A stretch of DNA of 64,000 nucleotides from a virus. Positions within the stretch are counted from its first letter, which is position 1, and each line of letters begins with the position of its first letter. Made by a program: the position numbers and the translations under genes. Positions 7,846 to 28,133 of the stretch are shown piece by piece. Below the pieces are notes generated by a model that was given only the letters and a program-made list of their open reading frames with translations, had not been told where the DNA came from and searched no databases. The stretch covers positions 20,166 through 84,165 of IMG/VR virus record IMGVR_UViG_3300027896_000023; one strand, written 5' to 3'.

Positions 7846-7846
7846 T

Positions 7847-8245: not shown

Positions 8246-8404
8246 ATAAACGATCTACAGGTGAAGTTTCTATGGGAACAATAGACATCTTAGCTTTAGC
8301 TTCGGGCTTGATCCCGATGACTGCCTTGCAAGCTTGTGACAAGATGCAAAGCAGCGGCAAATGCGAGAACAATTGCCGTACATGTGCCATTATAATACAG
8401 TTAA

Positions 8405-8671
8405 GTGGACAAACTCTGCTTGGCAAAGGACAGAAAACACTTGAACCATGATGACGGGTGCTTTAACTGCGACAACTGTAGTGCATCTACACCTACAGCT
8501 TGGATGAAGGTAGAGAACAACCATAAACTCTGCCCCAAATGCGCTCAACATCTAGGTTGCCACTGTACTACACGTAGATGTGTACCTTACGAAGCTTGGC
8601 TCAACAGTAGTTCCTTATGTGGAGCATGCACTAGCGTTTGCATCTGGATAAAACTACAGGTGAAGCAGTAA
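8405..8671 (+). CDS. Cys-rich zinc-finger protein
   Basis: Multiple CxxC pairs. Confidence 0.5.
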   Translation: MDKLCLAKDRKHLNHDDGCFNCDNCSASTPTAWMKVENNHKLCPKCAQHLGCHCTTRRCVPYEAWLNSSSLCGACTSVCIWIKLQVKQ

Positions 8672-8823
8672 TGCCAACATTAACATGTGCTCGCTGCAAA
8701 GCCACAGAAGAATATGATGAGCCGAAAACTCTACAGGATTTGCCTGATGGTTTATGGATGAATGGTAAATGGTACTGTAGCAGATGCGCTAACAGAGTAG
8801 CCATTCAACATCCTCCCCACTAA
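8671..8823 (+). CDS. Small zinc-ribbon protein
   Basis: CARC...WYCSRC; TAATG overlap with upstream gene. Confidence 0.55.
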   Translation: MPTLTCARCKATEEYDEPKTLQDLPDGLWMNGKWYCSRCANRVAIQHPPH

Positions 8824-8876
8824 ACTACAGGTGAAGAAGATGAAGAAGACCAAGCGGATCAGAGGACACCTCTACA

Positions 8877-9080
8877 ATGATGGGACTCCAAGCGAAGTTG
8901 GACCCGATGGTGAACGTTACTATGGGTAAACTACAGGTACAGTTAGAAGGAAACTTTGAAGATATGAGTCGCATCTACGAATTCATGAAACTCCATACCA
9001 AATCTGCCTCGAAAGCAACGTGGCTAAGCAAACCAGATGACGCACTCGTCTCCGCCGTCTCCTTCTCCGTCACAATCTAA
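8877..9080 (+). CDS. Hypothetical protein
   Basis: ORF in a dense + strand gene run. Confidence 0.45.
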   Translation: MMGLQAKLDPMVNVTMGKLQVQLEGNFEDMSRIYEFMKLHTKSASKATWLSKPDDALVSAVSFSVTI

Positions 9081-9221
9081 ACTACAGGTGCAACCTCAAT
9101 GGAGAATCCCTTCTGGTTCTACGATGGCGGCGTCGGCATGTGCAAATGGATATGGTTCTGGGTGGAGATGGCTGGTATCCCAACCAGAGATTGTCCCCGT
9201 GACTACTAACTACAGGTGTAG

Positions 9222-9698
9222 ATGATGCCGAAGATAGATTCGCTGCAAGTTTTCATGCAAAACAATGGACTGCTGAAGCCCAAGCCCCCTCAACCTCCAC
9301 GTAAAAAACGTGAACCTACACCTGAACTTAGCTGGGAAGGCGGAAGCGAAGATGGAGACTCAGCGGAGTGGGAATGGGAAGACCTCATGACGAATCTTTC
9401 AGCTGTACTTAAGCAACTTCAGAAGCGCAACAACCATGAAGGCTACTGGAAAGCCAGCGTCACAGGCTTCGGATGGAGAAAGCAGGATGGAACGAAGGAC
9501 TTCAAAGCATATACAGCTGTAGAATTCCTCCGTACAATCCTGCCAGATACCGATTGCCACTTCGACATCTACGTAGACAAAGTAAAACATCAGCTTCGCA
9601 TCCACAACTTCCACCATGATGCACCAACAGGCGAATGGCACACGGTCAAGCCCATGACGTACCGTGAAGCAGACAAGTTCTACTCCACTGACAACTAA
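9222..9698 (+). CDS. Hypothetical protein (GFGWR / HHDAPTGE motifs)
   Basis: 158-aa ORF with typical codon usage. Confidence 0.7.
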   Translation: MMPKIDSLQVFMQNNGLLKPKPPQPPRKKREPTPELSWEGGSEDGDSAEWEWEDLMTNLSAVLKQLQKRNNHEGYWKASVTGFGWRKQDGTKDFKAYTAVEFLRTILPDTDCHFDIYVDKVKHQLRIHNFHHDAPTGEWHTVKPMTYREADKFYSTDN

Positions 9699-9857
9699 AA
9701 CAGGGGAGGGGTGAGTGAAAGTGAACAAACGAATTAAATGTCCAGCTTGCAAAGGCACAGGAAACGGCGCGTCTACAGATGTAGATTGCGATGAATGTAG
9801 AGGAAGCGGGTACATCTATATACCCGTGACCATAACACCATCAAGGATGTGAGTAAC

Positions 9858-9992
9858 ATGGTAACAGAAACAAGAAGAATAACAAACCGCAGAAACCAAG
9901 CAGTCATCAGAAAGAAACGCAAACAACTTGGCTTATGCCAACGATGCGGACAACCCCTACCAAAGAAACCTACAGGTGAAGCCACATCATAA
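9858..9992 (+). CDS. Small basic CxxC protein (not in ORF track)
   Basis: MVTETRR...RKQLGLCQRCGQPL; similar to the N-terminus of the convergent gene 9987-10283. Confidence 0.5.
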   Translation: MVTETRRITNRRNQAVIRKKRKQLGLCQRCGQPLPKKPTGEATS

Positions 9993-10283
9993 CCTACGTT
10001 GACTCCTACAATCTACACATCGCCCAAGCGAATCAAACTTTACAGCATCAGAAGATTTGCCACAGTACAGGCAACGCTTCAACACTACTACAGGTGAAAC
10101 CTGACTTGCTGTCGCCGCCACAGCAACTGCAGCAGCACGCCCCCGTCGAACAGGCGAAAGCTTCTTCTTTTCTACAGGTGCAGATGACTCGCCCAAAGAG
10201 TGCCCGCATTTTGTACAACAGTTCCTCGCTTTCCTTTCAGCGTACAAACGACGCATCAATTCAGCCTTAGTAAGCCTTACCAT
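9987..10283 (-). CDS. Basic zinc-finger putative DNA-binding protein
   Basis: Basic helix followed by CxxC and a second CxxC..CxxC; only minus-strand gene in this arm. Confidence 0.65.
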   Translation of the reverse strand: MVRLTKAELMRRLYAERKARNCCTKCGHSLGESSAPVEKKKLSPVRRGRAAAVAVAATASQVSPVVVLKRCLYCGKSSDAVKFDSLGRCVDCRSQRRL

Positions 10284-10372
10284 ACAGCATCAATTCAGCC
10301 TTAGTAAGCCTTACCATACAGCATCAATTCAGCCTTAGTAAGCCTTACCATACAACAGAGTAAGCCTTACCA
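10253..10372. repeat. Three perfect tandem 34-bp repeats plus a partial copy
   Basis: GCATCAATTCAGCCTTAGTAAGCCTTACCATACA at 10253, 10287 and 10321; partial AGTAAGCCTTACCA at 10359. Confidence 0.95.
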
Positions 10373-10419
10373 CAAGATAAGAGTAACGTTACCGCCAATA
10401 GTAACAGTTACTACACCTA

Positions 10420-10590
10420 TAGAAAGAACCAAACCCCCAACCAACCACCCACCCAAACATCAACGGCACTTTTTTGTATGTTGTTTTTGGTTGTGCGGAT
10501 TGTTTGTTTGTTGTTTGTTGTTGGAGTGGGTTGTTGATGGGCACGGCTGGTATATGTTGGGGTTCTCTGGGCATATTGTTCTTGTTGTTA
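10420..10590. other. Second A/C-rich to G/T-rich switch region, similar to 720-800
   Basis: AGAACCAAACCCCCAA..CCCAAACA followed by TTG-rich sequence. Confidence 0.45.
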
Positions 10591-10838
10591 CAGGTGTAGA
10601 TGTCATAGCATCATTTGGCACTGCTGAATTTGCTGGTGTCTATCATTCAAGAAAAAATGTTGAAGCATCAATGCGTACTCCGTTTCAAGCGGCATCACCA
10701 TGACAACATACATACTTTACGTTTGACAACACGTTTAAAAGACGGTTGCTCTTGTACAGTACAGGTGTAAGTGAGTGATATGCGGATGGATAGATGGGGT
10801 TGCAAGGGGAAGGAAGGAAAAGTTACAGGTGAAATTGT

Positions 10839-11024
10839 ATGGGTAAGTACGGTAGAAAACCTGAACAGGTAAAGCAAGACACGCATCCACGTCTCTGCCG
10901 AAAATGTGGAAAGCGAACCTACAGTTGGAGTTGTTGCGGTCAACAGACTGCACGAGTTAATGACAAAGCGTTTACCAAGAACAGGCTTAGCCAAAATCTC
11001 GGTGACAAAGCAGATTACAGGTGA
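10839..11024 (+). CDS. Small zinc-finger protein
   Basis: CRKC..CC; AGGTGA RBS. Confidence 0.55.
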   Translation: MGKYGRKPEQVKQDTHPRLCRKCGKRTYSWSCCGQQTARVNDKAFTKNRLSQNLGDKADYR

Positions 11025-11187
11025 AGAGGTGAAAATGAAATGAGTGAACCAAAGATTTACTGGCGAGACATCGGGGAACATGGTGCAATAACACAGCGCG
11101 ACGGATGCTACTACTGGGAGGCATGGCGAAGAAGCTACACCTGCACAACAATACCTGATGGGTGAAGCTAAAGTAAAGAATCGGTAA

Positions 11188-11213
11188 CCACGTGTGCCAT
11201 TTGGCAAACATGG
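11188..11213. promoter_or_regulatory. 26-bp palindromic site, copy 1 (parS-like)
   Basis: CCACGTGTGCCATTTGGCAAACATGG; near-identical copies at 34319 and 58411. Confidence 0.6.
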
Positions 11214-11220
11214 ATGCAAG

Positions 11221-11320
11221 CCATACTCCCGCCGAGTGTGGAAGAGTAACTCTCTTGTTCCGAAGGTTCGTCGGAAGACATTCACCGAACTGCAAAGCGG
11301 TCTGGTGACAAAGAGTTTAC
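11221..11320 (+). ncRNA. Candidate structured leader RNA upstream of the Ku-like gene
   Basis: Hairpin 11221-11241, then a multi-branch element closed by 11248-11258/11308-11317 with inner stems TTCCGA/TCGGAA and TCACC/GGTGA. Confidence 0.4.
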
Positions 11321-11344
11321 ATGAAAAATACAGGTGAAGAATGA

Positions 11345-12208
11345 ATGCGAATAGCATTAGCAGGATTTGAAGCCGACGTTTCCACTGAGTTAGTGAAGTC
11401 GGCTAAGCTGATTGATGAACCATTGATTGTTGAACTCATCAACGGCTACCAAGAAGTGTGTAAGTCATGCGTTTCTTGCGCTGGCTGCACGAAATATCCG
11501 TTCTGTTCCTCCATCGAGGTTAAGGAACGGAGTGTACCCTTGTATCCTACAGGTGAAACTTTTGTGGATGACGAGGGCGAAACCAAACCCGTCATGCGAC
11601 AGGGCGAACCCTACAAGCAAAGCATGAAAACCAAAGGCGTAGAAGATTGCAACGGCGTGTTTCGACAGGTGAAGAAAGGCGAGTACAAAGGATACGAAGT
11701 AGTAGCAGACCCATCTGACCCCACCAAGATACTGCTTGAAGAACGAGTCATGTTCGAGGAAGGCACAAAGATTCTTGACATCACTGAAGAAGACCTGTTC
11801 CCTGCAGGTGTAGAAACAAACTTCTTAATTGAGAAGCTCTACGAAATCTATCCGCACCATGACAAAAGCATCGAGAAGGATAACCGCAACAAACAGAAAC
11901 TCTACGAGATACATCAGCTACTCTCCGAGAAAAAGAAAGTAGCAATCAAGAATGGATTCGTGTGGCGTGGAGGCACGTATCAAGCGTGGGCTGCAATCAT
12001 TGAAGCTATGACTTTTGAAGATGGCAAATGGTTACTCACGTTGAAGACCACCCAAGCACAGCTTAGTTGGATTCATCCACAGGAAGTACCCGTTGTGTTG
12101 ACTGAACTACAGGTGAAGAAAGCGCCAACCGTGAACAACCTGACGGCGATTACAAGTTTCCTCAGCAAAGTAAAGGCTGAACAGAAGCCGCAACTGCAGG
12201 TGAAGTAA
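11345..12208 (+). CDS. Ku-like DNA end-binding protein with Cys-rich insertion
   Basis: Ordered Ku-like motifs: KGYE, TKILDI, EKLYEIYP, KLYEI..LL..KKKVAI, FVWR, LLTL. Confidence 0.6.
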   Translation: MRIALAGFEADVSTELVKSAKLIDEPLIVELINGYQEVCKSCVSCAGCTKYPFCSSIEVKERSVPLYPTGETFVDDEGETKPVMRQGEPYKQSMKTKGVEDCNGVFRQVKKGEYKGYEVVADPSDPTKILLEERVMFEEGTKILDITEEDLFPAGVETNFLIEKLYEIYPHHDKSIEKDNRNKQKLYEIHQLLSEKKKVAIKNGFVWRGGTYQAWAAIIEAMTFEDGKWLLTLKTTQAQLSWIHPQEVPVVLTELQVKKAPTVNNLTAITSFLSKVKAEQKPQLQVK

Positions 12209-12432
12209 GTTGGCTGACGACTTTCAGTTGATTGAACTGCGCAACCAACGACATGGATGAGGAAGAGTATGACCCCGAAGGAAAGAAAGTTAACTAGAGA
12301 ATTCGATGCCATCCTCAGAAATACAGCTGAAGATTTAGAGACAGGCGCAGAATCCATCAAGAATCTTCGGGATGCACATGGCAAATACTCTGTGGATATA
12401 CAGGAATCAAAACTTATGGAACGTGTTCAAAC

Positions 12433-12720
12433 ATGATGTATGAATCAGATGACTTCAAAGTTACACGCAACAAAGCTACACCTGAAAACCCCTTCAGCTT
12501 TACAACCAAAAGCAAATGCAAGAAGGGTTGGGTTTCAGCTAACTTCTTTTGGAAACCAAGCAACGTGACCATGCGAATCATCGGCGACAAGATACCATGC
12601 ATGGAGATAGCGTATCCATTCGTGAACCACAACGGCGGCGGAGTGCTGGCGGACATGGCACCGCAGGAACTCCTACGTACGCTGGTTAATCGACTGAACA
12701 TACAGGTGAAGAATCAATGA
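12433..12720 (+). CDS. Hypothetical protein
   Basis: ORF with overlapping start/stop codons. Confidence 0.6.
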   Translation: MMYESDDFKVTRNKATPENPFSFTTKSKCKKGWVSANFFWKPSNVTMRIIGDKIPCMEIAYPFVNHNGGGVLADMAPQELLRTLVNRLNIQVKNQ

Positions 12721-13133
12721 GTGAACAAGACGAATGTGAAGATTGCAACGGCACAGGCTACGAGAAACATGGTAGCGCAGATGAGAAGAAATGTACCACG
12801 TGTAAAGGCACAGGCAAAGTACCCCACACCTACACTGAAGAAGAGATAAACAAAATCATAAACTTCCATGGCGCCAACGGAAAACTCATCGACATCTTCT
12901 CCTTGCATGGCGTACTCTTTGTTGGCAATACTACACCTATAGTTACCTTAGAGAATGGACAAATCAAACACTGCAATGGATGGGACTTGAGTCACGAGGG
13001 ACAGTACACACGGTTCAGCACAGGCAACCTTGCAGTTTCCATAGATGACTTTTGGGATTGCCATACACCTGAAGAAGTACATGATACGTTCGGCGAACTG
13101 CTGGAAGAACGAGTCAAGGAGAATCTAGTATGA
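12717..13133 (+). CDS. Protein with DnaJ-type CxxCxGxG zinc finger
   Basis: CEDCNGTG...CTTCKGTG. Confidence 0.7.
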   Translation: MSEQDECEDCNGTGYEKHGSADEKKCTTCKGTGKVPHTYTEEEINKIINFHGANGKLIDIFSLHGVLFVGNTTPIVTLENGQIKHCNGWDLSHEGQYTRFSTGNLAVSIDDFWDCHTPEEVHDTFGELLEERVKENLV

Positions 13134-13318
13134 GTTGCCCTAATTGTGGAACTAAAGTAGTAGACGTCTTCGTCACCAGCAACTACACGTTAACCAAAGA
13201 TGGTGATGATTGGGTGCGAACAGACATCGAGAACCCAGTTGACGATTCAACCTACAGGTGTACCAAATGCCGTAAGGTGTTACCACCTGAACTGCTGGAA
13301 GAATTAGGAGTGACCTAA
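13130..13318 (+). CDS. Small zinc-ribbon protein
   Basis: CPNCG...CTKC. Confidence 0.65.
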   Translation: MSCPNCGTKVVDVFVTSNYTLTKDGDDWVRTDIENPVDDSTYRCTKCRKVLPPELLEELGVT

Positions 13319-13319
13319 G

Positions 13320-13520
13320 ATGAAAGAGTACACCGTGTACCTGAAAGAAATCATGGATGAAACCAGCGTGGATGCAGATGACGAGGCACAAGCGAAACGT
13401 ACAGCTGCAGATTTGTTTCTGGATTTTCACCCTGACCTGACCAGAGAATTTGTTGAGGCGCACATGGAGATAATCGAGACACGAGAACTGACAGCAGAGG
13501 AGGAGAAGGAAATTGGGTGA
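13320..13520 (+). CDS. Hypothetical acidic protein
   Basis: ORF; GGAGTGA RBS. Confidence 0.6.
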   Translation: MKEYTVYLKEIMDETSVDADDEAQAKRTAADLFLDFHPDLTREFVEAHMEIIETRELTAEEEKEIG

Positions 13521-14025
13521 CCATAGAACAAACGGTGAGAAACTTTACGATGAGTTCGACGGCTTGATTGACAGCGCCGAAGCGTATGGATTCCATGTGA
13601 TTGCAGAAAAGCTACGCAAGATTCGAGACCACACACCGAAGTATCCTACAGCTGTAGATGAAGGCATCAGTATGTTGAGGAAAGGAAAGAAGCCTCCTGC
13701 ATGGATAGAGAAGCTGGATGATGATGCATTGAAGGAGACACTTCAAGATTGTAAAGAAGCATTGAAGTCACAGAAGTGTGGGTGGGATACGCATACTGTT
13801 GAGGAACTGCAGCAGCTTGAGGCAGAAACTACAAGGCGCAAAGGCTTACGGTTCTTAGACCCAGCAGCCTACGACCAAGAACAGCTAAAGAAATACTTCG
13901 TGCAACCTACAGCTGCAGAGAATCCGAAGTGCCCCAACTGCAAGAACATCATGGTGATAGATACCACAGGTAAGTCACACTGCGAATACTGTGAGAAGGA
14001 GGCGAAGCAAGATGGCAGAACCTAA
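13513..14025 (+). CDS. Hypothetical protein with C-terminal zinc ribbon
   Basis: CPNC...CEYC. Confidence 0.65.
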   Translation: MGDHRTNGEKLYDEFDGLIDSAEAYGFHVIAEKLRKIRDHTPKYPTAVDEGISMLRKGKKPPAWIEKLDDDALKETLQDCKEALKSQKCGWDTHTVEELQQLEAETTRRKGLRFLDPAAYDQEQLKKYFVQPTAAENPKCPNCKNIMVIDTTGKSHCEYCEKEAKQDGRT

Positions 14026-14353
14026 ACAAAAATTTGTCATAAGAGTTCACTTCACCAACAACGATACCTACGCAGACTGGAGTACAATCTACATCAAAGG
14101 CAAGATACCTGACAAAGCATGGCTGAAGAGTTTGTACGATGGAGTGAATGAACCCAAAGACATGACGGTGCTGGGAACTATTCTTCCGCGACACCCGAAG
14201 ATTCCAGTTGTTAGTCTTGACAACATTGCAGGAACATACGACGACCCGTATGATGCAGCGAATTGTATACAAGACCTGTCTTCAGCTGAAGATAGAAAGC
14301 TAGGACAGTACACGAATGGACAAGGAGTCATTGTAGTTTACTACAAAGATTGA
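14012..14353 (+). CDS. Hypothetical protein
   Basis: AGGAGG RBS before ATG 14012. Confidence 0.65.
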   Translation: MAEPKQKFVIRVHFTNNDTYADWSTIYIKGKIPDKAWLKSLYDGVNEPKDMTVLGTILPRHPKIPVVSLDNIAGTYDDPYDAANCIQDLSSAEDRKLGQYTNGQGVIVVYYKD

Positions 14354-14363
14354 GGAATGAAAG

Positions 14364-14567
14364 TTGAGTAAGAAAAAGCAAGGACAAGTCATCGCCAATG
14401 GCGTACCTGTGTATGGCTTCGACGAATACAACGAGGCGGGTGCACGTATGGTAGCTGGCGGCGAGTTGAAAAAGATACTCCGTTTGAAGCGGAGTCTTGG
14501 AGAAATCCGAGTACAGTATCCATCGGGGCGAGAAGTCCTGATAAAAATATCAGAGGTAAACGAGTAA
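14364..14567 (+). CDS. Hypothetical protein
   Basis: ORF, translationally coupled to next gene. Confidence 0.55.
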   Translation: MSKKKQGQVIANGVPVYGFDEYNEAGARMVAGGELKKILRLKRSLGEIRVQYPSGREVLIKISEVNE

Positions 14568-15127
14568 TGAAAGTGTTTAGTTTTGACAAGGAAACATTGT
14601 TGGAAGAATTGAAGACTAACCCGAAGTGGAGTAAGTACCTCAGCATCTACAACAAAGAAGATGGAGACGGAGACCTGTCACAAAAGTTCAATGAAGACTG
14701 TACGGGCTGCTGCAACCCAAGCACATTGATGTTTGTGTTGGCTGACACAGAAGAGGAAGCAAAAGAAATGACCTTCAAAAACGAAGCTGGAATGTGCGGC
14801 GACTGCATGGCAACTGAACTGGCTAACACTGAAGGCGGGACCTACGAACTTCATTACCATAAAGATACAACTGCACCTGCAGGAAAAATCTACAAAGTCC
14901 CAGCGTGCGAATCCTGTGGGGAACCTTTAGAGAAAGTTCAGTTCAACGACTACACCACGTACACATTCAACGCGAAGATAGGACAGTATGAGAACACAGG
15001 CGGCGATGCTGAAAGCAAATGCAACGAGTGTGAAGCAAAACTGGGAGATGAAGTGGGCGACTTCGTTGGCGACTACCAAGCTACCAAGCTAATTAAAGAA
15101 AAGAAACCTACAGGTGAAACCAAATGA
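14567..15127 (+). CDS. Cys-rich zinc-binding protein
   Basis: Four CxxC motifs. Confidence 0.7.
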   Translation: MKVFSFDKETLLEELKTNPKWSKYLSIYNKEDGDGDLSQKFNEDCTGCCNPSTLMFVLADTEEEAKEMTFKNEAGMCGDCMATELANTEGGTYELHYHKDTTAPAGKIYKVPACESCGEPLEKVQFNDYTTYTFNAKIGQYENTGGDAESKCNECEAKLGDEVGDFVGDYQATKLIKEKKPTGETK

Positions 15128-15576
15128 ACAACAGCATTGTCACATCAATCATGGCAGAGATAACTCCTGATGACATCGACCCAACAACTGAAGCTATAAT
15201 CTTCCTTATCGATAATCGCTACAAAGAACTAGGCATCGAAACAAAATACGGCAAAACCATCACACTTGACACAACACCTAAACCTGAACGGCATGGCTAC
15301 AGCAGTTACTTTGAACCTCTTAACAAACAAGTTGCAACCTTAGACATCCGTAAGAAAGGAGCTATCAATGGCAAAGCTGAACTGCAATTCACAGCCCGCC
15401 CTGAAACCATTGGAGACGAAGACAATGAAGAGGAAGTATTCATTGTCACTGTGGAAGAACGAGGGATGCTAGATGCAACTGGAAACTACAAGCAGTTCAA
15501 GACGCCACGTGGAACCTACACAATCAAGGGTACAGAGAAAGCTGAGTTCAAAATTATCAACGAGGTGCTACCATGA
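15124..15576 (+). CDS. Hypothetical protein
   Basis: ORF with ATGA overlaps. Confidence 0.7.
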   Translation: MNNSIVTSIMAEITPDDIDPTTEAIIFLIDNRYKELGIETKYGKTITLDTTPKPERHGYSSYFEPLNKQVATLDIRKKGAINGKAELQFTARPETIGDEDNEEEVFIVTVEERGMLDATGNYKQFKTPRGTYTIKGTEKAEFKIINEVLP

Positions 15577-16256
15577 CCGAACTACAGGTGAAGAAACAGA
15601 ACCTCCGCCAACAGTTTGAACATTTCCTACTGACCGACTATCCTTCTGATGCAGGAGAAACATTGAAGGAAGCCCAGAAGTACGCTAAAGAAATGTACTT
15701 CAGTGACCCAGACGGCAGCATACCTGACCAATACATAGGCGAAGATATACTGAATGACATCAACAGCAAATTCTACCGTGTGCTTTCATTCATCCGCAGC
15801 CTATTCGAAGCGAAGCATCCAGAAGCTAAAGACGTCTTTATCAACGTAGACCCAAGCTACGAAGACCACACCTGCTATGTGGTACATCAATACAGCAGCC
15901 ACAAAGTTCTACTCAGTGGCAACGACAAAGCATGGAACTTCTGGTGGCGTAACGTGTATGAATTCAAACGGTTCGTAACGTCTACGCTTGAGGCGATGGA
16001 AGAAATCTACAAGCCCCAAACATTGCACGTAGTCATCAACAACTACGGCGGAGTTCTGAATGACATTGACCCATTCGTTGATGAAGCAGATGCATTGAAA
16101 CAGTTTGAAGTGTACGCTGAAATTCCCTATGCTACATACGCCAAACGCAAAGCAGCTTACGACAAAGGCAAACGCGGCAACCTCTGGGATGATGAAGACA
16201 CAGATGTACAGGTGTGGGAAATCAAAGTGATACCCAAAGGAGGCAAGCCTGAGTAA
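15573..16256 (+). CDS. Hypothetical protein
   Basis: 227-aa ORF; GAGGTG RBS. Confidence 0.75.
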   Translation: MTELQVKKQNLRQQFEHFLLTDYPSDAGETLKEAQKYAKEMYFSDPDGSIPDQYIGEDILNDINSKFYRVLSFIRSLFEAKHPEAKDVFINVDPSYEDHTCYVVHQYSSHKVLLSGNDKAWNFWWRNVYEFKRFVTSTLEAMEEIYKPQTLHVVINNYGGVLNDIDPFVDEADALKQFEVYAEIPYATYAKRKAAYDKGKRGNLWDDEDTDVQVWEIKVIPKGGKPE

Positions 16257-16355
16257 TGCCGTACCTTGTGAAAGCTAAGATAACAGGAGAGAGACAAAAG
16301 GTGAAGCGTCTTCTGGAAGAAGTAGACTTGCTTGCCCAACAACTACACGTGAAGG

Positions 16356-16628
16356 TTGAGTACGATGCCGTTGAATGATAACCTGCAAGAGTGGTACAAC
16401 GAACACATGAAGACACTCGTTGACCAAGCATCTAAAGAACAGCCCCTTCCCAAAGGAAGCAACATGTTAGAGATGGTGAACCGCCTGATAGCACGAAACA
16501 AAATCCATGCCAAGACACTGATACTCAAAGACCTACAGGTGCAGTTCAACCTGACACCTTACCCTGAAGAAGTGAAACTTGTCTGTCCCATTTGTGACAG
16601 AGAAATATCGGAGGAACATCCAGTATGA
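16356..16628 (+). CDS. Hypothetical protein
   Basis: ORF with C-terminal CPIC. Confidence 0.55.
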   Translation: MSTMPLNDNLQEWYNEHMKTLVDQASKEQPLPKGSNMLEMVNRLIARNKIHAKTLILKDLQVQFNLTPYPEEVKLVCPICDREISEEHPV

Positions 16629-17005
16629 AAGTTGAGATGAAAGAACAGAAACATTTGTGGATAGTCTTTGGAGACCAAGCTACCCGCAACCAAGCAGAGG
16701 TCATCATAGACCTTGAACACAACGATGTACGCATTTGCGATTATCGTAGCCAAGTAGTCAAGGTGCGGCTGAAACCAGACCTACAGGTGAAGGACATCTT
16801 AGTCAACGACGTATTCCAAGCAGTCGAACAGCCATCAACGCTTTTATTGCATTGCGTGGTGGCGGATTGTCGCCGCCGAGTAACAAGAAGTATTCGCAGC
16901 CATAAAAATGGGTACACCCAGGAGAATTTTACCAAGAGTTATGTTGCTATGTTCGAGGTTTACATTGGCGGATTTCGATATGAAAAGAAAACCGAAAAGA
17001 CCTAG
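16625..17005 (+). CDS. Hypothetical protein
   Basis: ORF; GGAGG RBS. Confidence 0.6.
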   Translation: MKVEMKEQKHLWIVFGDQATRNQAEVIIDLEHNDVRICDYRSQVVKVRLKPDLQVKDILVNDVFQAVEQPSTLLLHCVVADCRRRVTRSIRSHKNGYTQENFTKSYVAMFEVYIGGFRYEKKTEKT

Positions 17006-17281
17006 ATGCTTTCAGAAAGCGCACAGTGGAACAGAAGAGTTTGAGAAATGCCAACTGTGTCTTTGGCAAGATTGCTGTGAAGCACATTACCAACTCACTT
17101 AGGCTCTCTTAAGTTGGTTTACGATTAAAGATGCATCAGTTGTTATCCGCTTCCGCATCGACGGCAAAGTGCACCAAGAAATTGTGGACTATCCAATGAT
17201 CGAAGTCTCTGCAGACATATCCGCATTGAAGACGTACCTGCACAAAGCAGTAGCAGACTTCAACAGCAGGGGGAACAAGCA

Positions 17282-17893
17282 ATGACTGAAGCTACAGCTG
17301 CAGTTAAACCAAGCCGCTGCGACAACTGCACCGTTGATCCAGAAGTCAGACGCAACACCCATTGTTGTGAACAGTGCACTCCAGAGAATCCGCAAAGCCA
17401 AACAGAAAACAGCAGAGTCTTCCTCGTCGGCAGCCATTCAACAACAATACCAAACCTATCTTCATACCGCGTAACCAAGTATCCGAACGGAACCTACAGG
17501 TGCACCTGCAGAAACTTCATCTTCAACCGTGACAAACCAGACCAACCTGAAGACAAACACATCGCAGACGCCAAAGCCAAATCAGATAACGTATCTGAAA
17601 TCACCAACCTCGACATGAAAGCTGTACTGATTCATCTAGAGAACGTAGCCTCCATCATTGAGAAACATGCTGACTTACCAGACCAGCCGACAGTATGGTT
17701 TGGCCACGTGCGTGATACCCTGCGTGCCCACGAGTACAAACTTACAGGTGCAGATCAAGCGTACCTGATGACGGAGATCACCGGCGCCGAAACTTTCTGG
17801 ATGCGATTCGATCAGAAGCGCAGGCAAATAGACCATCCTGAAGTGAAAGCTTCAGGTGAAGAAAAGAAGAAGACAGGAGTGTATTTCTTATGA
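17282..17893 (+). CDS. SWIM-like zinc-finger protein
   Basis: YRV......YRCTCRNFIF...DKHI. Confidence 0.7.
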   Translation: MTEATAAVKPSRCDNCTVDPEVRRNTHCCEQCTPENPQSQTENSRVFLVGSHSTTIPNLSSYRVTKYPNGTYRCTCRNFIFNRDKPDQPEDKHIADAKAKSDNVSEITNLDMKAVLIHLENVASIIEKHADLPDQPTVWFGHVRDTLRAHEYKLTGADQAYLMTEITGAETFWMRFDQKRRQIDHPEVKASGEEKKKTGVYFL

Positions 17894-18027
17894 CCGAGAG
17901 AACAGCACACACCCAGTTACCTGGAGACAACCTTCTTCCAAAGAAGAAAGTAAAGTGCCCCTTCTGTCCCAAAGAGTTTGACACCGTTATAGAAATGATA
18001 AAGCATGATGATGAGGCGCATGAGTAA
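17890..18027 (+). CDS. Small C2H2 zinc-finger protein (not in ORF track)
   Basis: KCPFCPKEF.....MIKHDDEAH. Confidence 0.6.
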   Translation: MTERTAHTQLPGDNLLPKKKVKCPFCPKEFDTVIEMIKHDDEAHE

Positions 18028-19028
18028 TGCCTAAAGAAAGATGTATGTTAGGATATGACAGCGACTTATCTGCACTCCACATGGAGAACATCCATGAGTA
18101 TCTCGTGCAGGTAAAGTGGGATGGCAACCGTGCCGTAACAGAATTCAACAGAGGCACAGTGCACATCGTTGGCAGAAGCGGAGAAGATTGGACAGACCGC
18201 CTGCCTGAAATGGTAGAGGCCCTTCAGCAATTAGCCAAAGCTACAGCTGCAACTTACTTCAAAATTGACGGAGAGATTGTAGTGTTCAAGGATGGACACA
18301 GCCACCTGCCAAGCGCCAACGCACGAGTCCACACTAAAGATAGGCAACGCATCAAGCTGATCCTGCGACGCACCCTCCCCGTAACCTACATGATATTCGA
18401 CGTACTCAACTGGAACGGCAACGATTTTACAGGTGCATCTTTAACAAGACGCGACGAAATCCTGGAGAACATCTTCCAAATTCCACACATGTTACCAGAC
18501 GGAACCCGCCTAGACGGTCGCAGCCTACAGCTGCAGATTCCCGGCTTACAGAAAGTTCCAACGTACAGCAACCCTGACGAATGCTGGGAAGAGTGGGTAA
18601 TGAAACGTAAAGAAGAAGGAGTTATGCTGAAGAAAAAGGACAGCATCTACATGTTCGACCGCAGCAGAGATTGGTTGAAAATCAAAGCACGAGACAAAGG
18701 AACATTCAAAGTAGTAGGATACACTGCTGGCAATGGCAACCGAGAAGAACTCTATGGTGCACTGGTGATTGCTAATCCAACTACAGGTGCGTACTGTGGA
18801 CGGTGTGGTGGCGGCTTTTCACAGGAGATGGCTGAAGACATAATTACAGTTCTAAAGCATGAACCGCAAACGGGGTTACCTTTTACGGAGAGTGAAGTGG
18901 GTAGACCATACACTGCAGTTGATACACATATGTTGGTTGAGGTTGCTTTTCAAGCTACGGACAATTATAGTACAACTGGAAAGCTTCGAAGCCCACAATT
19001 AATACGCTGGTGGATACCTGAATCCTAA
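18027..19028 (+). CDS. lig: ATP-dependent DNA ligase
   Basis: Motif I KWDGNR, III DGEIV, IIIa FDVL, IV EGVMLK, V WLKIK, VI LRSP. Confidence 0.95.
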   Translation: MPKERCMLGYDSDLSALHMENIHEYLVQVKWDGNRAVTEFNRGTVHIVGRSGEDWTDRLPEMVEALQQLAKATAATYFKIDGEIVVFKDGHSHLPSANARVHTKDRQRIKLILRRTLPVTYMIFDVLNWNGNDFTGASLTRRDEILENIFQIPHMLPDGTRLDGRSLQLQIPGLQKVPTYSNPDECWEEWVMKRKEEGVMLKKKDSIYMFDRSRDWLKIKARDKGTFKVVGYTAGNGNREELYGALVIANPTTGAYCGRCGGGFSQEMAEDIITVLKHEPQTGLPFTESEVGRPYTAVDTHMLVEVAFQATDNYSTTGKLRSPQLIRWWIPES

Positions 19029-19091
19029 AACCAAATACTTCACAAACCTTATTAATGGATTCAACCATTAGGAAAACGATGTGAAATAACA

Positions 19092-19877
19092 ATGTCAACT
19101 CATAAGTATAGCAAAAGGCGAACAGAAAATAAACGAAAGCAAGATACAGAAAAAGCAATTTCGTTATTCGATGATGGCTTTACTCTTAGAGAGATAGCGA
19201 AGAAACTTGGGTTAACATTCAATCAGTTGTATGAAGACTTATCCCAGAATTACCCAGACAAAACAATGTGGCAAATACTTAGACGCAATTCCTACACCTG
19301 CAGAATACACACAGAACTTAGAGTGACAAAAGAAAAAGTGTTGCGTGCAAGAAAGCTTCTGGAAAAATATCCTGTACAAACTGTTGCTAACATTATTGGC
19401 ATTCCGCATGGCAGATTGAAACACCTTCCAGAAGGAAAACGTAGTATGGAACTTGGATACAACTGCAACCTGTTACTGTTTGCATTGGCAGGTGAACATC
19501 TTCTTGGACGATACCTATACGAAATAAAACCGCAACAATGGCACATTAGAGAGAACTTACCTAACTCAAATCTTGCACCCGACTTCTGGACTGAAGAAGA
19601 ATTCTGGGATTCAAAAGCTAGATGTTACGGAACAAGCGCACACAAACGTATAGTCAAAACGGAACTAGCAAAGTATTCGAAGCTATTCAAGAAAGGCTAC
19701 GTTGTCTACTGGTTTGGCGTACCTGATAATGTAAAATCAAGTTTGTCCAACATAGAACTAATAGATGGACGAAAACTGAAACCGACAAGCGTTACGTTAC
19801 AAAAAGACATACAAGATTTTCTAAATGGTAACATAACCAAAATCATAACACAGATGTTCACAGGTGAAATGGTATGA
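19092..19877 (+). CDS. HTH plus TPD/C15orf41(CDIN1)-like PD-(D/E)XK nuclease; putative free-standing homing endonuclease
   Basis: N-terminal HTHs (GFTLREIAKKLGL); GEHLL..YL, APDF, WDSKA, Y...F..GYVVYWFG; AT-richer than flanks; own TATA (TTATTAA ~19049). Confidence 0.65.
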   Translation: MSTHKYSKRRTENKRKQDTEKAISLFDDGFTLREIAKKLGLTFNQLYEDLSQNYPDKTMWQILRRNSYTCRIHTELRVTKEKVLRARKLLEKYPVQTVANIIGIPHGRLKHLPEGKRSMELGYNCNLLLFALAGEHLLGRYLYEIKPQQWHIRENLPNSNLAPDFWTEEEFWDSKARCYGTSAHKRIVKTELAKYSKLFKKGYVVYWFGVPDNVKSSLSNIELIDGRKLKPTSVTLQKDIQDFLNGNITKIITQMFTGEMV

Positions 19878-20104
19878 TAGGCAGAGTAGGCGGAGGATTC
19901 ACGTTGGAGACAGCACAGCAGATCATAGATGTGTTGGAGAATGAACCGCGCACAGGCTTGCCTTATCCAGAAAGCGAAGTAGGTAGACCGTATACAGCTG
20001 TAGATACCAAGATGATTGTTGACGTAGCATTCCAGGCGACAGACAACTATAGCACAACAGGCAAGCTGCGGAGTCCCCAGTTGATAGGATGGCGAATGGC
20101 ATGA
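19860..20104 (+). pseudogene. Displaced duplicate of the ligase 3' end
   Basis: 55/71 aa identical to the ligase C-terminus by manual alignment. Confidence 0.9.
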
Positions 20105-20361
20105 GTGAAGTTAAGCAGCCAGAGAACAGATACACCATATACATTGAACCGCAACGTGGACTCTTCGGTCTCATCAAGGGAGACAACATGGGCGTAGCAT
20201 TACACAACGGGCACGACTCAACACCATACGACAGTGATCCAAAACATCGGACACTTGAGTTTCAACTGTTCGGAGAAACAGGAGAACATTGGAAGGTCAC
20301 CAAGCTGACGCTTACCGAGTTATCTTTGGATGTTGAAGTAGAACTACAGGTGAAGAAGTAA
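20101..20361 (+). CDS. Hypothetical protein
   Basis: ATGA overlap with the ligase remnant stop. Confidence 0.65.
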   Translation: MSEVKQPENRYTIYIEPQRGLFGLIKGDNMGVALHNGHDSTPYDSDPKHRTLEFQLFGETGEHWKVTKLTLTELSLDVEVELQVKK

Positions 20362-20570
20362 TGCCAAAGATAATAGCTGAACTTGAAAAGCATGGGGCAT
20401 TAGATCGCTTACGCAAATGGCTTGAGGATCACCCAGCACAATCATCACTAACGCTTGCAGCACGAGAAACATTCCTATCCGTAACCAACACCAAAGCAGC
20501 CCTGCGATACTTAGGCTACACAATTTCTAAAGACAACAGTTACAGGTGGAGTGACCGCAATGACAGATGA
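20361..20570 (+). CDS. Small putative HTH protein
   Basis: ORF, coupled to neighbours. Confidence 0.55.
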   Translation: MPKIIAELEKHGALDRLRKWLEDHPAQSSLTLAARETFLSVTNTKAALRYLGYTISKDNSYRWSDRNDR

Positions 20571-20814
20571 AGAAACAATCAAGAAAGCAATCCATGATTA
20601 CGCCTCCATGTGGCACAGCGACCGCGCAAAACGAACCACAGTAGAGAAAGCATTAGACCGCAAAGTATCCCGACACGGCTACGGATTAGAGAATGCACAT
20701 GATAAAGTAGAAGCACTCATCAAGGCCGGCATCCTGGTCCACGATCCAACAGGCAAGTTTCTCTTAGATACAGCTGTAGCTTCACCATCAAAGCTGGGGC
20801 CTGGATTCAGATGA
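20560..20814 (+). CDS. Small putative winged-helix protein
   Basis: VEALIKAGIL...G.FLL. Confidence 0.55.
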   Translation: MTDEETIKKAIHDYASMWHSDRAKRTTVEKALDRKVSRHGYGLENAHDKVEALIKAGILVHDPTGKFLLDTAVASPSKLGPGFR

Positions 20815-21053
20815 CTGAACCTACAGGTGAAGTAAAGATTTACATGCGCCTTAAGCTCGAGGGATTCACAAAGGAAGAACTCAAATCAATCTTGGCCAAC
20901 ATCAAATCTACGGAAGGCGGACGCAAAGACCGATTGATTCTAGTGGATATTGGAACTGCACCGGAACTGAAACGTGAAGAAGCAACAGCGCTACTCAAAG
21001 AACTGATGCCTGGACTCAAGGTTCGGGATCAGCGGCCAGTGTACGCAAGCTAA
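20811..21053 (+). CDS. Hypothetical protein
   Basis: ORF, ATGA overlap. Confidence 0.6.
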   Translation: MTEPTGEVKIYMRLKLEGFTKEELKSILANIKSTEGGRKDRLILVDIGTAPELKREEATALLKELMPGLKVRDQRPVYAS

Positions 21054-21060
21054 GATACAG

Positions 21061-21471
21061 GTGAAGAACATGACAAGCGGTAGACAAGGATTCCTTAAAG
21101 GCAATCTACACCAGTATCTTCTGGCGCATAAGCGACCGATGCGACCACGAGATTTAATCCGCGCAGGCTTCGCAGCAAGTAATGTAGCAACATATCTAAA
21201 GCAGCTAGTGCAAGAAGGCAAAGTCACACGTAAAGAGATGCCGAAAGAAACAAACGGATTAGGGCGCAAGCACAAGGGAAATGGCCGTCCACCAGTTTTC
21301 TATCAAGCAGTACCTACAGGTGAAGCTATGATTAGTTTGGGGAACAATATGTTGATTCCTGAAAGCGTTTGGAATAATGCCTGGGCAGAAGCAGCCAAGA
21401 AACAATTACCTGTTACTGATGGTAGAGGCAGAGTTATTGGTAGACTACTTGAGGGAGGAGAACGTGGGTAG
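21061..21471 (+). CDS. Winged-helix transcription regulator
   Basis: SNVATYLKQLVQEGKVTR...GRPPVFY. Confidence 0.75.
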   Translation: MKNMTSGRQGFLKGNLHQYLLAHKRPMRPRDLIRAGFAASNVATYLKQLVQEGKVTRKEMPKETNGLGRKHKGNGRPPVFYQAVPTGEAMISLGNNMLIPESVWNNAWAEAAKKQLPVTDGRGRVIGRLLEGGERG

Positions 21472-21472
21472 C

Positions 21473-21667
21473 ATGGATAAAATGGATGTTAGAATCTTAG
21501 AGGAATATGACCGAATCAAAGGTAGTTATGAAGTGTTGGGAAAGAAGTACCGGGCTGCTGTGAAGCGTGGCGATGAAGTTGCAGCTGCAGAAATAGAGAA
21601 GCAGATGATGGCTATTGATAAAAAGAATGCTGCTATTTCCAGCGGTGAAGGTTTTCGACAAGCGTAA
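21473..21667 (+). CDS. Small coiled-coil protein
   Basis: ORF with GGAGGAG RBS. Confidence 0.5.
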   Translation: MDKMDVRILEEYDRIKGSYEVLGKKYRAAVKRGDEVAAAEIEKQMMAIDKKNAAISSGEGFRQA

Positions 21668-27507: not shown

Positions 27508-27924
27508 ATGACAGAACCATTGCCTACAGAAGAAGAGTTGGTTGAAGCTTTGAACTTTCTACGTGTACATGGTGTCCTGCTTCGTGACGGAGAAATCGAT
27601 GGAAAACCTGCTTACATCTTTGGCAAAGGCGTTAGGCAAAGCTTCCTGAAAATATACGACTTACTATCCAAAGTTGAGGAACGCCCCAAGCAACCATTGA
27701 TTGGTGCATTGATGTTGATTGTTATGGGCTACACAAAGTCACAGTTGACAGTTGAACAGCTGCGTGCAGCATGTGTTGTGCTGAAAGGTTTCGCTGAACG
27801 AACCGTGTTAGATAGAGATGGCTTGGAGAGAAAAGCATCTTTCAAAAGAAGTATGGTTGCCTCAACGCTGAGACCTGGCCTCATGATATTCAAAGCGGCG
27901 CCAAGGAACTTTGGCGTACATTGA
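27508..27924 (+). CDS. Hypothetical protein whose 3' end overprints a methyltransferase remnant
   Basis: ORF with AGGAG RBS. Confidence 0.6.
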   Translation: MTEPLPTEEELVEALNFLRVHGVLLRDGEIDGKPAYIFGKGVRQSFLKIYDLLSKVEERPKQPLIGALMLIVMGYTKSQLTVEQLRAACVVLKGFAERTVLDRDGLERKASFKRSMVASTLRPGLMIFKAAPRNFGVH

Positions 27925-28133
27925 AACCTGGAGGGATATTGTTGTTTAAATGGAATGAACATGACATCGGTTGGAGAAAAGTAATCAAACTGTTTCCTCA
28001 TCCGCCGATTATCTGTAACGTAAGCAGTGGTGCTAAGCGAGATAAACATGGCAAAGCCAGTACCACACGTTGGTTCTGCTTCTACAAACCAGAAAAAAGA
28101 TCTGAGAACTACGCGGAGATGCAGGATAAGTGA
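27816..28133 (+). pseudogene. C-terminal remnant of a DPPH-type DNA methyltransferase
   Basis: WLGEKSIFQKKYGCLNAETWPHD...ELWRTLKPGGILLFKWNE...TRWFCF aligns to the 31279-31791 product; SAM-binding and DPPH motifs are missing. Confidence 0.8.

What the first reader, a model, noticed from the sequence alone, without database searches (positions are those of the whole stretch)
18781..20104. TPD/C15orf41-like nuclease invading the ligase gene with a recoded replacement 3' end
Seen: the ligase C-terminal ~75 codons occur twice (55/71 aa identical, many synonymous changes), flanking an HTH-nuclease ORF with its own TATA. The in-frame copy has T-ending codons unlike the rest of the gene, while the orphan copy keeps native usage and the ATGA coupling to the next gene. 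Both junctions begin at ACAGGTG (18783, 19860), the core of the genome-wide motif. Known: some free-standing homing endonucleases carry a resistant copy of the target 3' end. Inference: intronless homing by a nuclease resembling the CDIN1/TPD family, which I do not know as a homing endonuclease.
Basis: partly seen in the sequence, partly recalled or inferred. Interest (0 to 1): 0.8.

Follow-up and report, generated by a model that had tools for sequence, protein, structure and literature searches.

The report
Nuclease cassette replaced ligase gene tail
An uncultured freshwater virus carries a small foreign cassette, a nuclease gene plus a substitute end for the DNA ligase gene it interrupts, which looks like a selfish "homing" element built on a nuclease family (the CDIN1/TPD type) that is not known to behave this way.

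Summary
The last ~71 codons of the ATP-dependent ligase gene occur twice, 18798-19010 and 19880-20092. They share 55/71 residues and 142/213 bases; third codon positions match at only 20/71. Between the copies lie a 63-bp AT-rich spacer and an intact 261-codon ORF (19092-19877).

The in-frame copy has foreign codon usage (T3 35%, C3 11%; ligase 5' part 16% and 34%; p=6e-5). The orphan keeps the ATGA overlap with the next gene and is slightly closer to the nearest ligase relative. So the in-frame copy and the ORF came in together.

The ORF passes Pfam's cut-off for PF14811 (TPD/CDIN1), keeps E...PD...(D/E)xK, and has only four full-length homologues among 1.84 billion representatives.

The architecture matches the "mobile ORF" elements of fungal mitochondria: foreign in-frame C-terminus, endonuclease ORF, native C-terminus (PMC3630166). 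Homing is inferred, not shown.

Frames differ, and the 19860 copy is an ordinary ribosome-site/start module of this virus lineage. This scan noted the same stretch before, in another window of the same genome.

The parts
18027..19028 (+). Hybrid ATP-dependent DNA ligase gene (333 aa): native 5' part plus foreign in-frame 3' end
   Evidence: PF01068 E 3.5e-30 and PF04679 E 3.7e-5. Relatives P0003-P0012 are 42-70% identical by BLASTP. All invariant C-terminal columns of the family are kept.
18750..19028 (+). Donor-derived tract: the replacement ligase 3' end. The left limit is approximate and lies somewhere in 18720-18785.
   Evidence: Cumulative C3-T3 peaks at the codon starting 18750. T3 is 35% and C3 11%, against 16% and 34% upstream (p=6.1e-5). 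Third-position identity to the orphan is 20/71.
18783..18789 (+). ACAGGTG heptamer inside the in-frame copy. It encodes the conserved Thr-Gly just before the GRCGGGF block.
   Evidence: G254 is nearly invariant in alignment A3.
19029..19091 (+). AT-rich spacer (30% GC) upstream of the nuclease ORF, containing TTATTAAT. A promoter is possible but untested.
   Evidence: GC 0.302. No sigma-70-type site lies in the spacer. Neighbouring genes overlap or abut.
19092..19877 (+). HTH-HTH-PD-(D/E)xK nuclease ORF (261 aa) of the TPD/CDIN1 family. Predicted catalytic residues are E135, D164, D173 and K175.
   Evidence: PF14811 at 30.9 bits against a cut-off of 27. Motifs are conserved in the 4 homologues and in P0140. 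hhalign to the full TPD protein P0140 gives probability 97.8%. The top structural hit in the Atlas is the C15orf41/TPD cluster. GC is 38%, against 46-50% in the flanks.
19860..19876 (+). Gene-junction module: ACAGGTGA (Shine-Dalgarno-like), a 7-base spacer and ATG. It overlaps the nuclease stop (ATGA). The right junction of the cassette lies within or just after it.
   Evidence: The layout matches the site at 10825 (16 of 17 bases) and other gene starts. The homologues' C-termini end at the aligned position.
19874..20104 (+). Orphan native ligase 3' end: 76 codons from the ATG, with the frame open from 19868 and no stop or frameshift
   Evidence: PF04679 E 8.9e-6. 58/75 residues are identical to P0003, against 52/75 for the in-frame copy. 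T3 is 16%, as in the native part. It ends in ATGA with the next gene.
20101..20361 (+). Downstream gene, formerly coupled to the ligase stop (alternative start at 20089)
   Evidence: No Pfam or PHROG match.

Best explanation
A cassette of about 1.1 kb entered the ligase gene of this virus by double-strand-break repair from a diverged relative. The cassette consists of the 3' end of another virus's ligase gene, a short AT-rich spacer, and a free-standing nuclease gene of the TPD/CDIN1 PD-(D/E)xK family with two N-terminal HTH domains.

Proposed mechanism:
1. During co-infection the nuclease cuts the native ligase sequence at or beside the conserved OB-domain block (G-R-C/V-G-G-G-F).
2. The left end invades the donor's homologous ligase sequence at or upstream of about 18750. 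It copies the donor tail, the spacer and the nuclease gene.
3. The right side is joined back near the cut. The native tail therefore survives downstream as an orphan.

Consequences. The donor tail keeps the ligase whole, so the insertion costs the virus little. It differs most from the native sequence in the first ~45 bases after the junction, which would protect the invaded allele from re-cutting. The orphan and the downstream genes can serve as the right homology arm for the next round.

Shown: the duplication, the foreign origin of the in-frame tail and the ORF, the derived state of the insertion, an intact nuclease with catalytic residues, and family membership.

Inferred: site-specific DNA cleavage, the target site, immunity of the hybrid allele, and mobility.
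For: 1. The two tails diverged under purifying selection in separate genomes. They share 55/71 residues, yet 39 of those 55 codons differ. Third positions match at 20/71, dN is 0.159 and dS is saturated.
2. The in-frame tail differs in codon usage from the 5' part of its own gene (p=6.1e-5). The orphan shares T3 with it and keeps the ATGA overlap with the next gene.
3. The orphan is closer than the in-frame tail to P0003, the nearest ligase relative (58 against 52 of 75). P0003 is 173/236 identical in the N-terminal part.
4. The cassette is a compositional island: GC 0.36-0.42 against 0.45-0.50 in the flanks, and it holds the only sizeable spacer in a tightly overlapping gene row.
5. The ORF is intact. 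All 5 full-length family members pass the PF14811 cut-off at 28.5-35.3 bits. GE..L, PD and (D/E)xK are conserved and align to a full TPD domain (hhalign 97.8%, E 9.5e-13). They correspond in kind to CDIN1's E166, D196, E214 and K216 (PMC13463051, passages).
6. Sequence-reading HTH domains fused to a nuclease are the usual build of free-standing homing enzymes (I-TevI example in PMC10055350, passage).
7. The family is rare and patchy. There are 4 full-length homologues among 1.84 billion representatives. There are none in IMG/VR, GTDB genomes, GenBank phages or plasmids. There is none in the one related virus record I could fetch, whose ligase is uninterrupted.
8. The junction abuts the most conserved block of the OB domain (R259, G261-G263 invariant), the kind of site homing enzymes favour.
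9. The same three-part architecture is documented, with biochemical proof of mobility, for fungal mitochondrial mobile ORFs (PMC3630166, passages). There the duplicated atp6 tails show 63.5% base identity and 91% residue identity; here the figures are 67% and 77%.
Against: - There is only one insertion event, and I obtained no DNA of a close uninvaded allele. The nearest fetched ligase locus (L002) is only 43% identical.
- The Pfam match covers only 45 of 138 profile positions, and the HTH matches are below their cut-offs.
- Human CDIN1, the only assayed family member I read about, is reported as an RNA nuclease acting on RNA:DNA hybrids, not a site-specific DNA endonuclease (PMC13463051). The family is also said to resemble Hjc resolvases (PMC7261414).
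- The low identity next to the junction coincides with a less conserved stretch of the protein, so it need not reflect selection for immunity.
- The right junction is not a clean homologous join.
Confidence: 0.55

Rival explanations
1. Ordinary mosaic recombination. In a relative, the nuclease gene simply lies downstream of the ligase and has another job, such as a resolvase-like repair or recombination nuclease, or an RNA or hybrid nuclease. One homologous crossover inside the ligase gene plus one illegitimate join moved both pieces across. The nuclease did not cause the event.
For: The structure needs only one homologous and one illegitimate crossover. The right junction is irregular, with a frame offset. 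The TPD family is compared with Hjc resolvases (PMC7261414), and CDIN1 is an RNA nuclease in vitro (PMC13463051). The gene sits in a replication and repair neighbourhood next to a ligase. I obtained no evidence of repeated mobility.
Against: The nuclease and spacer differ in composition both from the flanks and from the donor ligase tail (third positions: in-frame tail against nuclease p=0.036; ligase 5' part against nuclease p=3.5e-4), as expected of a gene foreign to the donor too. It has two DNA-reading HTH domains. It is extremely rare. The break falls inside a conserved coding block and is exactly compensated by a function-restoring tail, which is the hallmark of endonuclease-driven mobile ORFs.
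Confidence: 0.3
2. Motif-mediated cassette insertion. The genome-wide ACAGGTG quasi-palindrome acts as a recombination site, and the segment between two copies (18783 to 19860) was inserted by recombination at the heptamer, independent of the nuclease.
For: Heptamers stand directly 5' of both copies. The motif is strongly enriched in this virus (72 against 9.5) and in the related L002 (16 against 1.6).
Against: Removing the segment between the heptamers leaves the ligase out of frame: the orphan frame is offset by one base, with a stop three codons after the heptamer. T-ending codons already begin about 30 bases upstream of the first heptamer. With one plus-strand copy per ~420 bases in this region, and 14 of 37 copies followed at 3-12 bases by the start codon of an ORF of at least 40 aa, a heptamer before the orphan's ATG is what a normal gene border looks like here. 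The first heptamer encodes a conserved Thr-Gly.
Confidence: 0.08
3. Tandem duplication in place followed by drift of one copy, or an assembly chimera of two strains.
For: Two similar copies lie 1082 bases apart on one strand.
Against: Drift of a dead copy would not leave first and second codon positions at 57/71 and 65/71 identical while third positions fall to 20/71. Codon usage differs between the in-frame tail and its own gene. An unrelated ORF lies between the copies. Logan's separate assembly of the run bridges the whole stretch 17000-21500 in one contig with 0 differences at depth 21 (this is probably the source sample, so it is not independent). The same proteins are on record on a 96.5-kb contig.
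Confidence: 0.04

Closest known systems
Mobile ORF (mORF) elements of fungal mitochondria: Allomyces macrogynus atp6; Glomus sp. atp6, atp9, cox2, nad3; also the cob and atp6 C-terminal duplications of Endoconidiophora (PMC3630166 and PMC6279837, passages read)
   Same: The same three-part build: gene core, foreign in-frame C-terminus, endonuclease ORF, native C-terminus left downstream. The tails are diverged mostly at silent sites. The native tail groups with close relatives and the inserted tail does not.
   Different: Those are LAGLIDADG or GIY-YIG enzymes in organelle genomes. Here it is a TPD/CDIN1-type PD-(D/E)xK enzyme with HTH domains in a virus of prokaryotes, inside a ligase gene. 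The orphan also carries its own ribosome-site/start module.
Free-standing homing endonucleases of phages (intronless homing: T4 Seg and Mob proteins, F-CphI). PMC2988022 and PMC2790892 seen as search listing and abstract only; PMC6083498 abstract; PMC10055350 passages. Details of SegF and SegG are recalled, not read.
   Same: A nuclease gene with its own expression signals next to or inside a conserved replication gene. Spread by break repair with co-conversion of flanking markers. DNA-binding HTH modules fused to the nuclease.
   Different: The known phage cases use GIY-YIG, HNH, Endo VII-like or T5orf172 domains. I found no phage case described with a replacement 3' end plus orphan (one search returned only mitochondrial papers; that search does not prove absence).
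CDIN1 / C15orf41 and Pfam PF14811 (TPD)
   Same: Passes the family cut-off. Same domain order: two N-terminal HTH domains, then a PD-(D/E)XK domain (PMC7261414). The same class of catalytic residues (PMC13463051). The top structural neighbour in the Atlas is an archaeal C15orf41/TPD cluster (TM 0.50 over 175 residues; a lead only).
   Different: It is a viral, mobile-looking gene. There is no Codanin-1 partner. The spacing between PD and (D/E)xK is 9 residues, against 18 in CDIN1. The Pfam alignment is partial. CDIN1's reported substrates are RNA and RNA:DNA hybrids.
I-Ssp6803I, the known PD-(D/E)xK homing endonuclease (named in PMC6083498 abstract and the PMC10055350 reference list; structure recalled)
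   Same: A restriction-enzyme-like PD-(D/E)xK catalytic core used for homing.
   Different: It is intron-encoded, small and tetrameric (recalled). No sequence similarity was detected: the profile search of PDB chains with A5 returned only two HTH-region hits at E up to 10.
Archaeal and viral Hjc-type Holliday junction resolvases
   Same: PD-(D/E)xK fold. The literature notes similarity between C15orf41 and Hjc. One Atlas feature neighbour carries PF01870 Hjc (score 0.81; a lead only).
   Different: No Pfam Hjc match here. Resolvases lack the two HTH domains and are stable core genes rather than compositional islands inside another gene.

Membership tests
PF14811 TPD / CDIN1 (C15orf41) nuclease family | Score above Pfam's gathering cut-off | tested here: met
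   30.9 bits against 27 for the window protein. The four homologues score 28.7, 28.5, 30.0 and 35.3 bits. The match covers profile positions 83-127 of 138 only.
PF14811 TPD / CDIN1 (C15orf41) nuclease family | Catalytic E ... (T/A)PD ... (D/E)xK residues | tested here: met
   E135, D164, D173 and K175. The motifs are conserved in A4 and A5, except that one homologue (P0122) has Q at the E135 column. They align to the TPD motif of the full-length TPD protein P0140 (hhalign 97.8%). CDIN1's residues come from PMC13463051.
PF14811 TPD / CDIN1 (C15orf41) nuclease family | Two N-terminal HTH domains before the nuclease domain | tested here: inconclusive
   HTH matches at residues 22-52 and 82-110 are all below their cut-offs. 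One homologue reaches 24.3 bits for HTH_23 against a cut-off of 24.6. The exhaustive search hits tandem-HTH proteins with residues 5-54.
PF14811 TPD / CDIN1 (C15orf41) nuclease family | Restriction-endonuclease-like fold | tested here: inconclusive
   The Atlas's own model has pLDDT 0.73.
Free-standing homing endonuclease / mobile ORF element | Nuclease ORF inserted in or beside a conserved gene, with a foreign flanking tract (co-conversion) | tested here: met
Free-standing homing endonuclease / mobile ORF element | Gene core + in-frame foreign C-terminus + ORF + native C-terminus (mORF hybrid-gene layout) | tested here: met
   compared with PMC3630166.
Free-standing homing endonuclease / mobile ORF element | Presence/absence polymorphism among close relatives | tested here: inconclusive
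   The cassette is absent from the one related virus record (ligase 43% identical). Closer ligases (P0003 70%, P0004 60% by BLASTP) are full length as proteins, but their DNA could not be fetched. No variant lacking the cassette was seen in the source run's contigs.
Free-standing homing endonuclease / mobile ORF element | Site-specific cleavage of the empty allele and immunity of the occupied allele | not testable with these tools
   Needs protein and substrates.
Intron- or intein-encoded homing endonuclease | Self-splicing RNA or in-frame intein around the ORF | tested here: not met
   No Rfam family at E up to 1 in 18400-20400. The ORF has its own start, is separated from the ligase stop by 63 bases, and is in another arrangement.
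I-Ssp6803I-type PD-(D/E)xK homing endonucleases | Detectable sequence relationship | tested here: not met
   The profile of A5 against all PDB chain sequences gave 2 hits at E up to 10, both in the HTH region.

The most novel reading that the evidence does not exclude
TPD/CDIN1-type nucleases include true sequence-specific homing endonucleases. This cassette would then be the first member of a further homing-endonuclease family, and the first 'mobile ORF with replacement 3' end' element described in a virus of prokaryotes. The HTH-HTH-nuclease layout of human CDIN1 would then trace back to, or share ancestry with, a selfish DNA-cutting element.
Probability: 0.45. Interest if true: 0.7.

Novelty: new variant of a known kind. 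Interest (0 to 1): 0.58.

Why it matters
If the nuclease cuts the native ligase allele, several things follow.
- A new catalytic scaffold joins the short list of homing-endonuclease families. The PMC6083498 abstract lists six known families and proposes F-CphI as a further one.
- The mitochondrial "replacement C-terminus" strategy would also operate in viruses of prokaryotes.
- The poorly understood CDIN1/TPD family, mutated in a human anaemia, would gain a simple microbial member with a readable DNA target.
- For genome annotation, the case shows how such cassettes create hybrid genes and orphan gene ends that can mislead phylogenies and gene calls.

If the nuclease is only a passenger, this is an ordinary mosaic junction.

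Tried and rejected
- Structure prediction and contig look-up for the homologues and close ligases were closed. No model, fold search or gene neighbourhoods were therefore available.
- The ligase as a single query in IMG/VR gave nothing.
- The ligase alignment A3 in IMG/VR gave 23 loci, with only L002 close (43%).
- A3 in JGI metagenomes kept 80 of 429 hits. Only L025 (the same contig as L002) was close.
- A3 in GTDB genomes gave 80 loci, all cellular LigD-like at 32% identity or less.
- The nuclease alignment A5 found no confirmed relative in IMG/VR (26 pattern matches, 0 confirmed) or in GTDB genomes (348 pattern matches, 0 confirmed).
- The nuclease by tblastn found nothing in GenBank phages or plasmids.
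- The word-index protein search found only the window's own protein.
- A search for other orphan ligase tails among short proteins gave 3 hits. One is the window's own orphan. The other two are distant fragments.
- Sequencing runs: one DNA run holds the stretch, probably the source sample. Its contigs show the cassette in one 28,975-base contig, with no joint that skips it and no variant. This is neither independent support nor evidence that empty alleles are absent.
- The profile search of PDB sequences matched only the HTH region, to a designed 'CAP repeat' protein and an NMR structure.
- The HTH-only hits of the exhaustive search are mostly tandem-HTH proteins (8 of the 10 scanned are HTH arrays). 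None has a nuclease domain, so they say nothing about homing.
- The exact-seed repeat finder missed the duplication because the copies share few 9-mers.
- The sigma-70 and terminator scan was uninformative.
- I considered and rejected an intron or intein, duplication in place and an assembly chimera (see rivals).
- I considered that the nuclease recognises the genome-wide palindrome. Nothing tests it, and a site present 72 times in its own window would be self-destructive unless modified.
- Supplementary files of the papers were not opened. Those of PMC3630166 and PMC13463051 may hold alignments that bear on the comparison.
Full report
CONTEXT. The window is bases 20166-84165 of an 84,165-base IMG/VR virus record estimated 68% complete. 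The only run found to hold the stretch is a freshwater metagenome. Genes around the finding form a tight plus-strand row with overlapping stops and starts. The host is unknown. The ligase's cellular relatives are bacterial LigD-like at 32% identity or less, whereas the nuclease's Pfam family is mostly archaeal and eukaryotic in the Atlas clusters.

THE OBSERVATION. The ligase ORF 18027-19028 encodes 333 residues (PF01068 E 3.5e-30; PF04679 E 3.7e-5, below its cut-off). Its last 71 codons from 18798 align without gaps to 19880-20092.
- 55/71 residues are identical and 142/213 bases.
- 16 codons are identical, 39 differ synonymously and 16 change the residue.
- First, second and third codon positions match at 57, 65 and 20 of 71. 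dN is 0.159 and dS cannot be computed because it is saturated.
- In a self-tblastx of the whole window this pair scores 135 bits. It is the only close same-strand gene-piece duplication outside the giant repeat proteins and a short tandem repeat near 10.3 kb (the cut part of the output lies inside the repeat gene).

Between the copies lie the ligase stop, a 63-base spacer of 30% GC, and an intact ORF at 19092-19877. The second copy is open from 19868 and has an ATG at 19874 that overlaps the nuclease stop. It ends in a TGA that overlaps an ATG of the next gene.

WHICH COPY IS NATIVE.
- Third-position T and C are 35% and 11% in the in-frame copy, against 16% and 34% in the rest of the ligase gene (chi-square p=6.1e-5). 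The orphan has T3 of 16% and differs from the 5' part only marginally (p=0.044).
- The cumulative C3-minus-T3 curve along the ligase gene peaks at the codon starting 18750. The foreign tract therefore seems to begin some 30 bases before the heptamer at 18783.
- The nearest ligase relative, P0003, is 173/236 identical to the N-terminal part. It is 58/75 identical to the orphan and 52/75 to the in-frame tail.
- The orphan's extreme end resembles that of P0003. The in-frame end (RWWIPES) resembles the more distant clade and L002.
- GC falls to 0.36-0.42 across 18800-19850, against 0.45-0.50 on both sides.

Together these results say the virus once had an uninterrupted ligase gene coupled to the next gene. 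The tract from about 18750 to about 19873 then came in from a diverged relative.

THE NUCLEASE.
- The ORF scores 30.9 bits on PF14811 (TPD; cut-off 27) over profile positions 83-127 of 138. It has weak HTH matches at residues 22-52 and 82-110.
- An exhaustive HMMER pass over 1.84 billion representatives found 23 proteins at E up to 1e-3. Four are full-length homologues (36-37% identity, E 3.5e-36 to 1.4e-28). One is a 55-residue C-terminal fragment. One is a 374-residue protein (P0140) that carries a complete TPD domain (90.5 bits) fused to DUF488. The rest match only the HTH region.
- All five full-length members pass the Pfam cut-off.
- The alignment shows conserved GE..L, WH..EC, APDF.TEEE.W(D/E)SK and VVYWFG blocks. 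These are the E...PD...(D/E)xK signature, at E135, D164, D173 and K175.
- The family profile aligns to P0140's TPD domain with 97.8% probability.
- Human CDIN1 is described as two HTH domains followed by a PD-(D/E)XK domain (PMC7261414, passage), with catalytic E166, D196, E214 and K216 and RNA-nuclease activity in vitro (PMC13463051, passages).
- The ESM Atlas holds a model of this very protein (pLDDT 0.73). Its best structural neighbour is an archaeal C15orf41/TPD cluster (TM 0.50 over 175 residues), followed by restriction-enzyme families. These are leads, not proof.
- My own structure prediction could not be run.

DISTRIBUTION.
- The nuclease has no relative in IMG/VR, GTDB genomes, GenBank phages or plasmids. 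The virus genome holds one copy.
- The one related virus record I could fetch (L002/G001: 84,303 bases, partial synteny, ligase 43% identical) has an uninterrupted 323-residue ligase. It has no duplicated tail and no nuclease homologue.
- Closer ligases exist as full-length proteins (P0003 70%, P0004 60% by BLASTP), but their DNA was out of reach.

THE HEPTAMER.
- ACAGGTG occurs 72 times in the window, against 9.5 expected. It is equally enriched in L002, at 16 against 1.6, so it is a trait of the lineage.
- Of 37 plus-strand copies between 6000 and 21500, 14 are followed within 3-12 bases by the start of an ORF of at least 40 codons.
- The copy at 19860 has exactly that layout: seven bases, then ATG 19874. 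It is 16/17 identical to the gene-start module at 10825.
- The homologues' C-termini end at the aligned position of the Thr-Gly that the 19860 copy encodes. So this copy belongs to the end of the nuclease gene and to a gene border.
- The copy at 18783 encodes the conserved Thr-Gly before the invariant R259/G261-G263 block.
- The two copies are in different frames relative to the ligase reading. Deleting what lies between them leaves a stop three codons on.

I therefore read the two heptamers as a consequence of motif density and function, with microhomology at the join possible but unproven.

MECHANISM. The best reading (confidence 0.55) is a free-standing homing endonuclease cassette of the 'mobile ORF' type.
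1. The enzyme cuts the native ligase gene beside its most conserved OB-domain block.
2. Repair copies the donor's ligase tail, spacer and nuclease gene.
3. The native tail is retained downstream.

The hybrid ligase keeps every invariant residue of its family, so the host virus loses nothing. The donor tail differs most from the native one in the first 45 bases (14-16 of 30 identical, against 18-23 of 30 further on). That difference would protect the occupied allele, although that stretch of protein is also less conserved. The orphan has a ribosome-site/start module and ATGA overlaps on both sides, so it may still be translated and may preserve coupling to the next gene. This last point is inference.

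PRECEDENT. The architecture is not new in kind. Glomus and Allomyces mitochondria carry the same core, foreign C-terminus, endonuclease ORF and native C-terminus. Mobility of the Allomyces element has been shown biochemically, as cited in PMC3630166 (passages). Endoconidiophora shows cob and atp6 C-terminal duplications flanked by endonuclease ORFs (PMC6279837). What is new is the nuclease family and the setting. Searches for PF14811, for C15orf41 with 'homing endonuclease', and for CDIN1 with 'homing endonuclease' returned 0 papers each. A search for phage cases of the hybrid-gene layout returned only the mitochondrial papers. These searches cover open-access text only.

RIVALS.
- Passenger nuclease in an ordinary mosaic junction (0.30). 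It cannot be excluded with one event and no biochemistry, and the family's links to resolvases and RNA nucleases favour it.
- Motif-mediated cassette insertion (0.08). It conflicts with the frame offset and the upstream change point.
- Duplication in place or an assembly chimera (0.04). It conflicts with the codon-position pattern and with an independent assembly of the run that bridges the region (same sample, so weak).

VERDICT. This is a real and unusual feature. It is a new variant of a known kind of selfish element, with a candidate new homing-nuclease family. The claim of homing rests on architecture and analogy and needs the steps listed under decisive next steps.

Noticed in passing
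window 176-63077, densest on the plus strand at 6371-21322; L002 73-8756: The heptamer ACAGGTG is about 8-fold enriched in the window (72 against 9.5 expected) and about 10-fold in the related virus locus L002 (16 against 1.6). In 6000-21500, 14 of 37 plus-strand copies are followed within 3-12 bases by the start codon of an ORF of at least 40 codons. Its origin, and any role beyond ribosome binding, is unexplained.
   Followed up: partly
It had no Pfam match at E up to 0.001. It is conserved in the related virus L002 (tblastx 45% over 121 residues). If it is an end-joining factor, the ligase hit by the cassette would be part of a viral end-joining pair.
   Followed up: partly
protein P0140 (374 aa; not in the window): A complete TPD nuclease domain fused to a DUF488 domain, found on contigs up to 73.8 kb from NCBI and ENA sources. 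This domain pairing was not looked into.
   Followed up: no
protein P0130 (55 aa; ENA contig of 1633 bases): A short ORF 42% identical to the last ~50 residues of the nuclease. It could be a decayed copy of a related cassette or a gene cut at a contig end. Its context could not be read.
   Followed up: no
window 27825-27998 (+) and 31396-31569 (-): Two stretches on opposite strands encode peptides 50% identical over 58 residues (79 bits). They may be an inverted pair of small paralogous genes.
   Followed up: no
window 10238-10358: A short tandem repeat with a 34-base offset, seen in the self-comparison.
   Followed up: no
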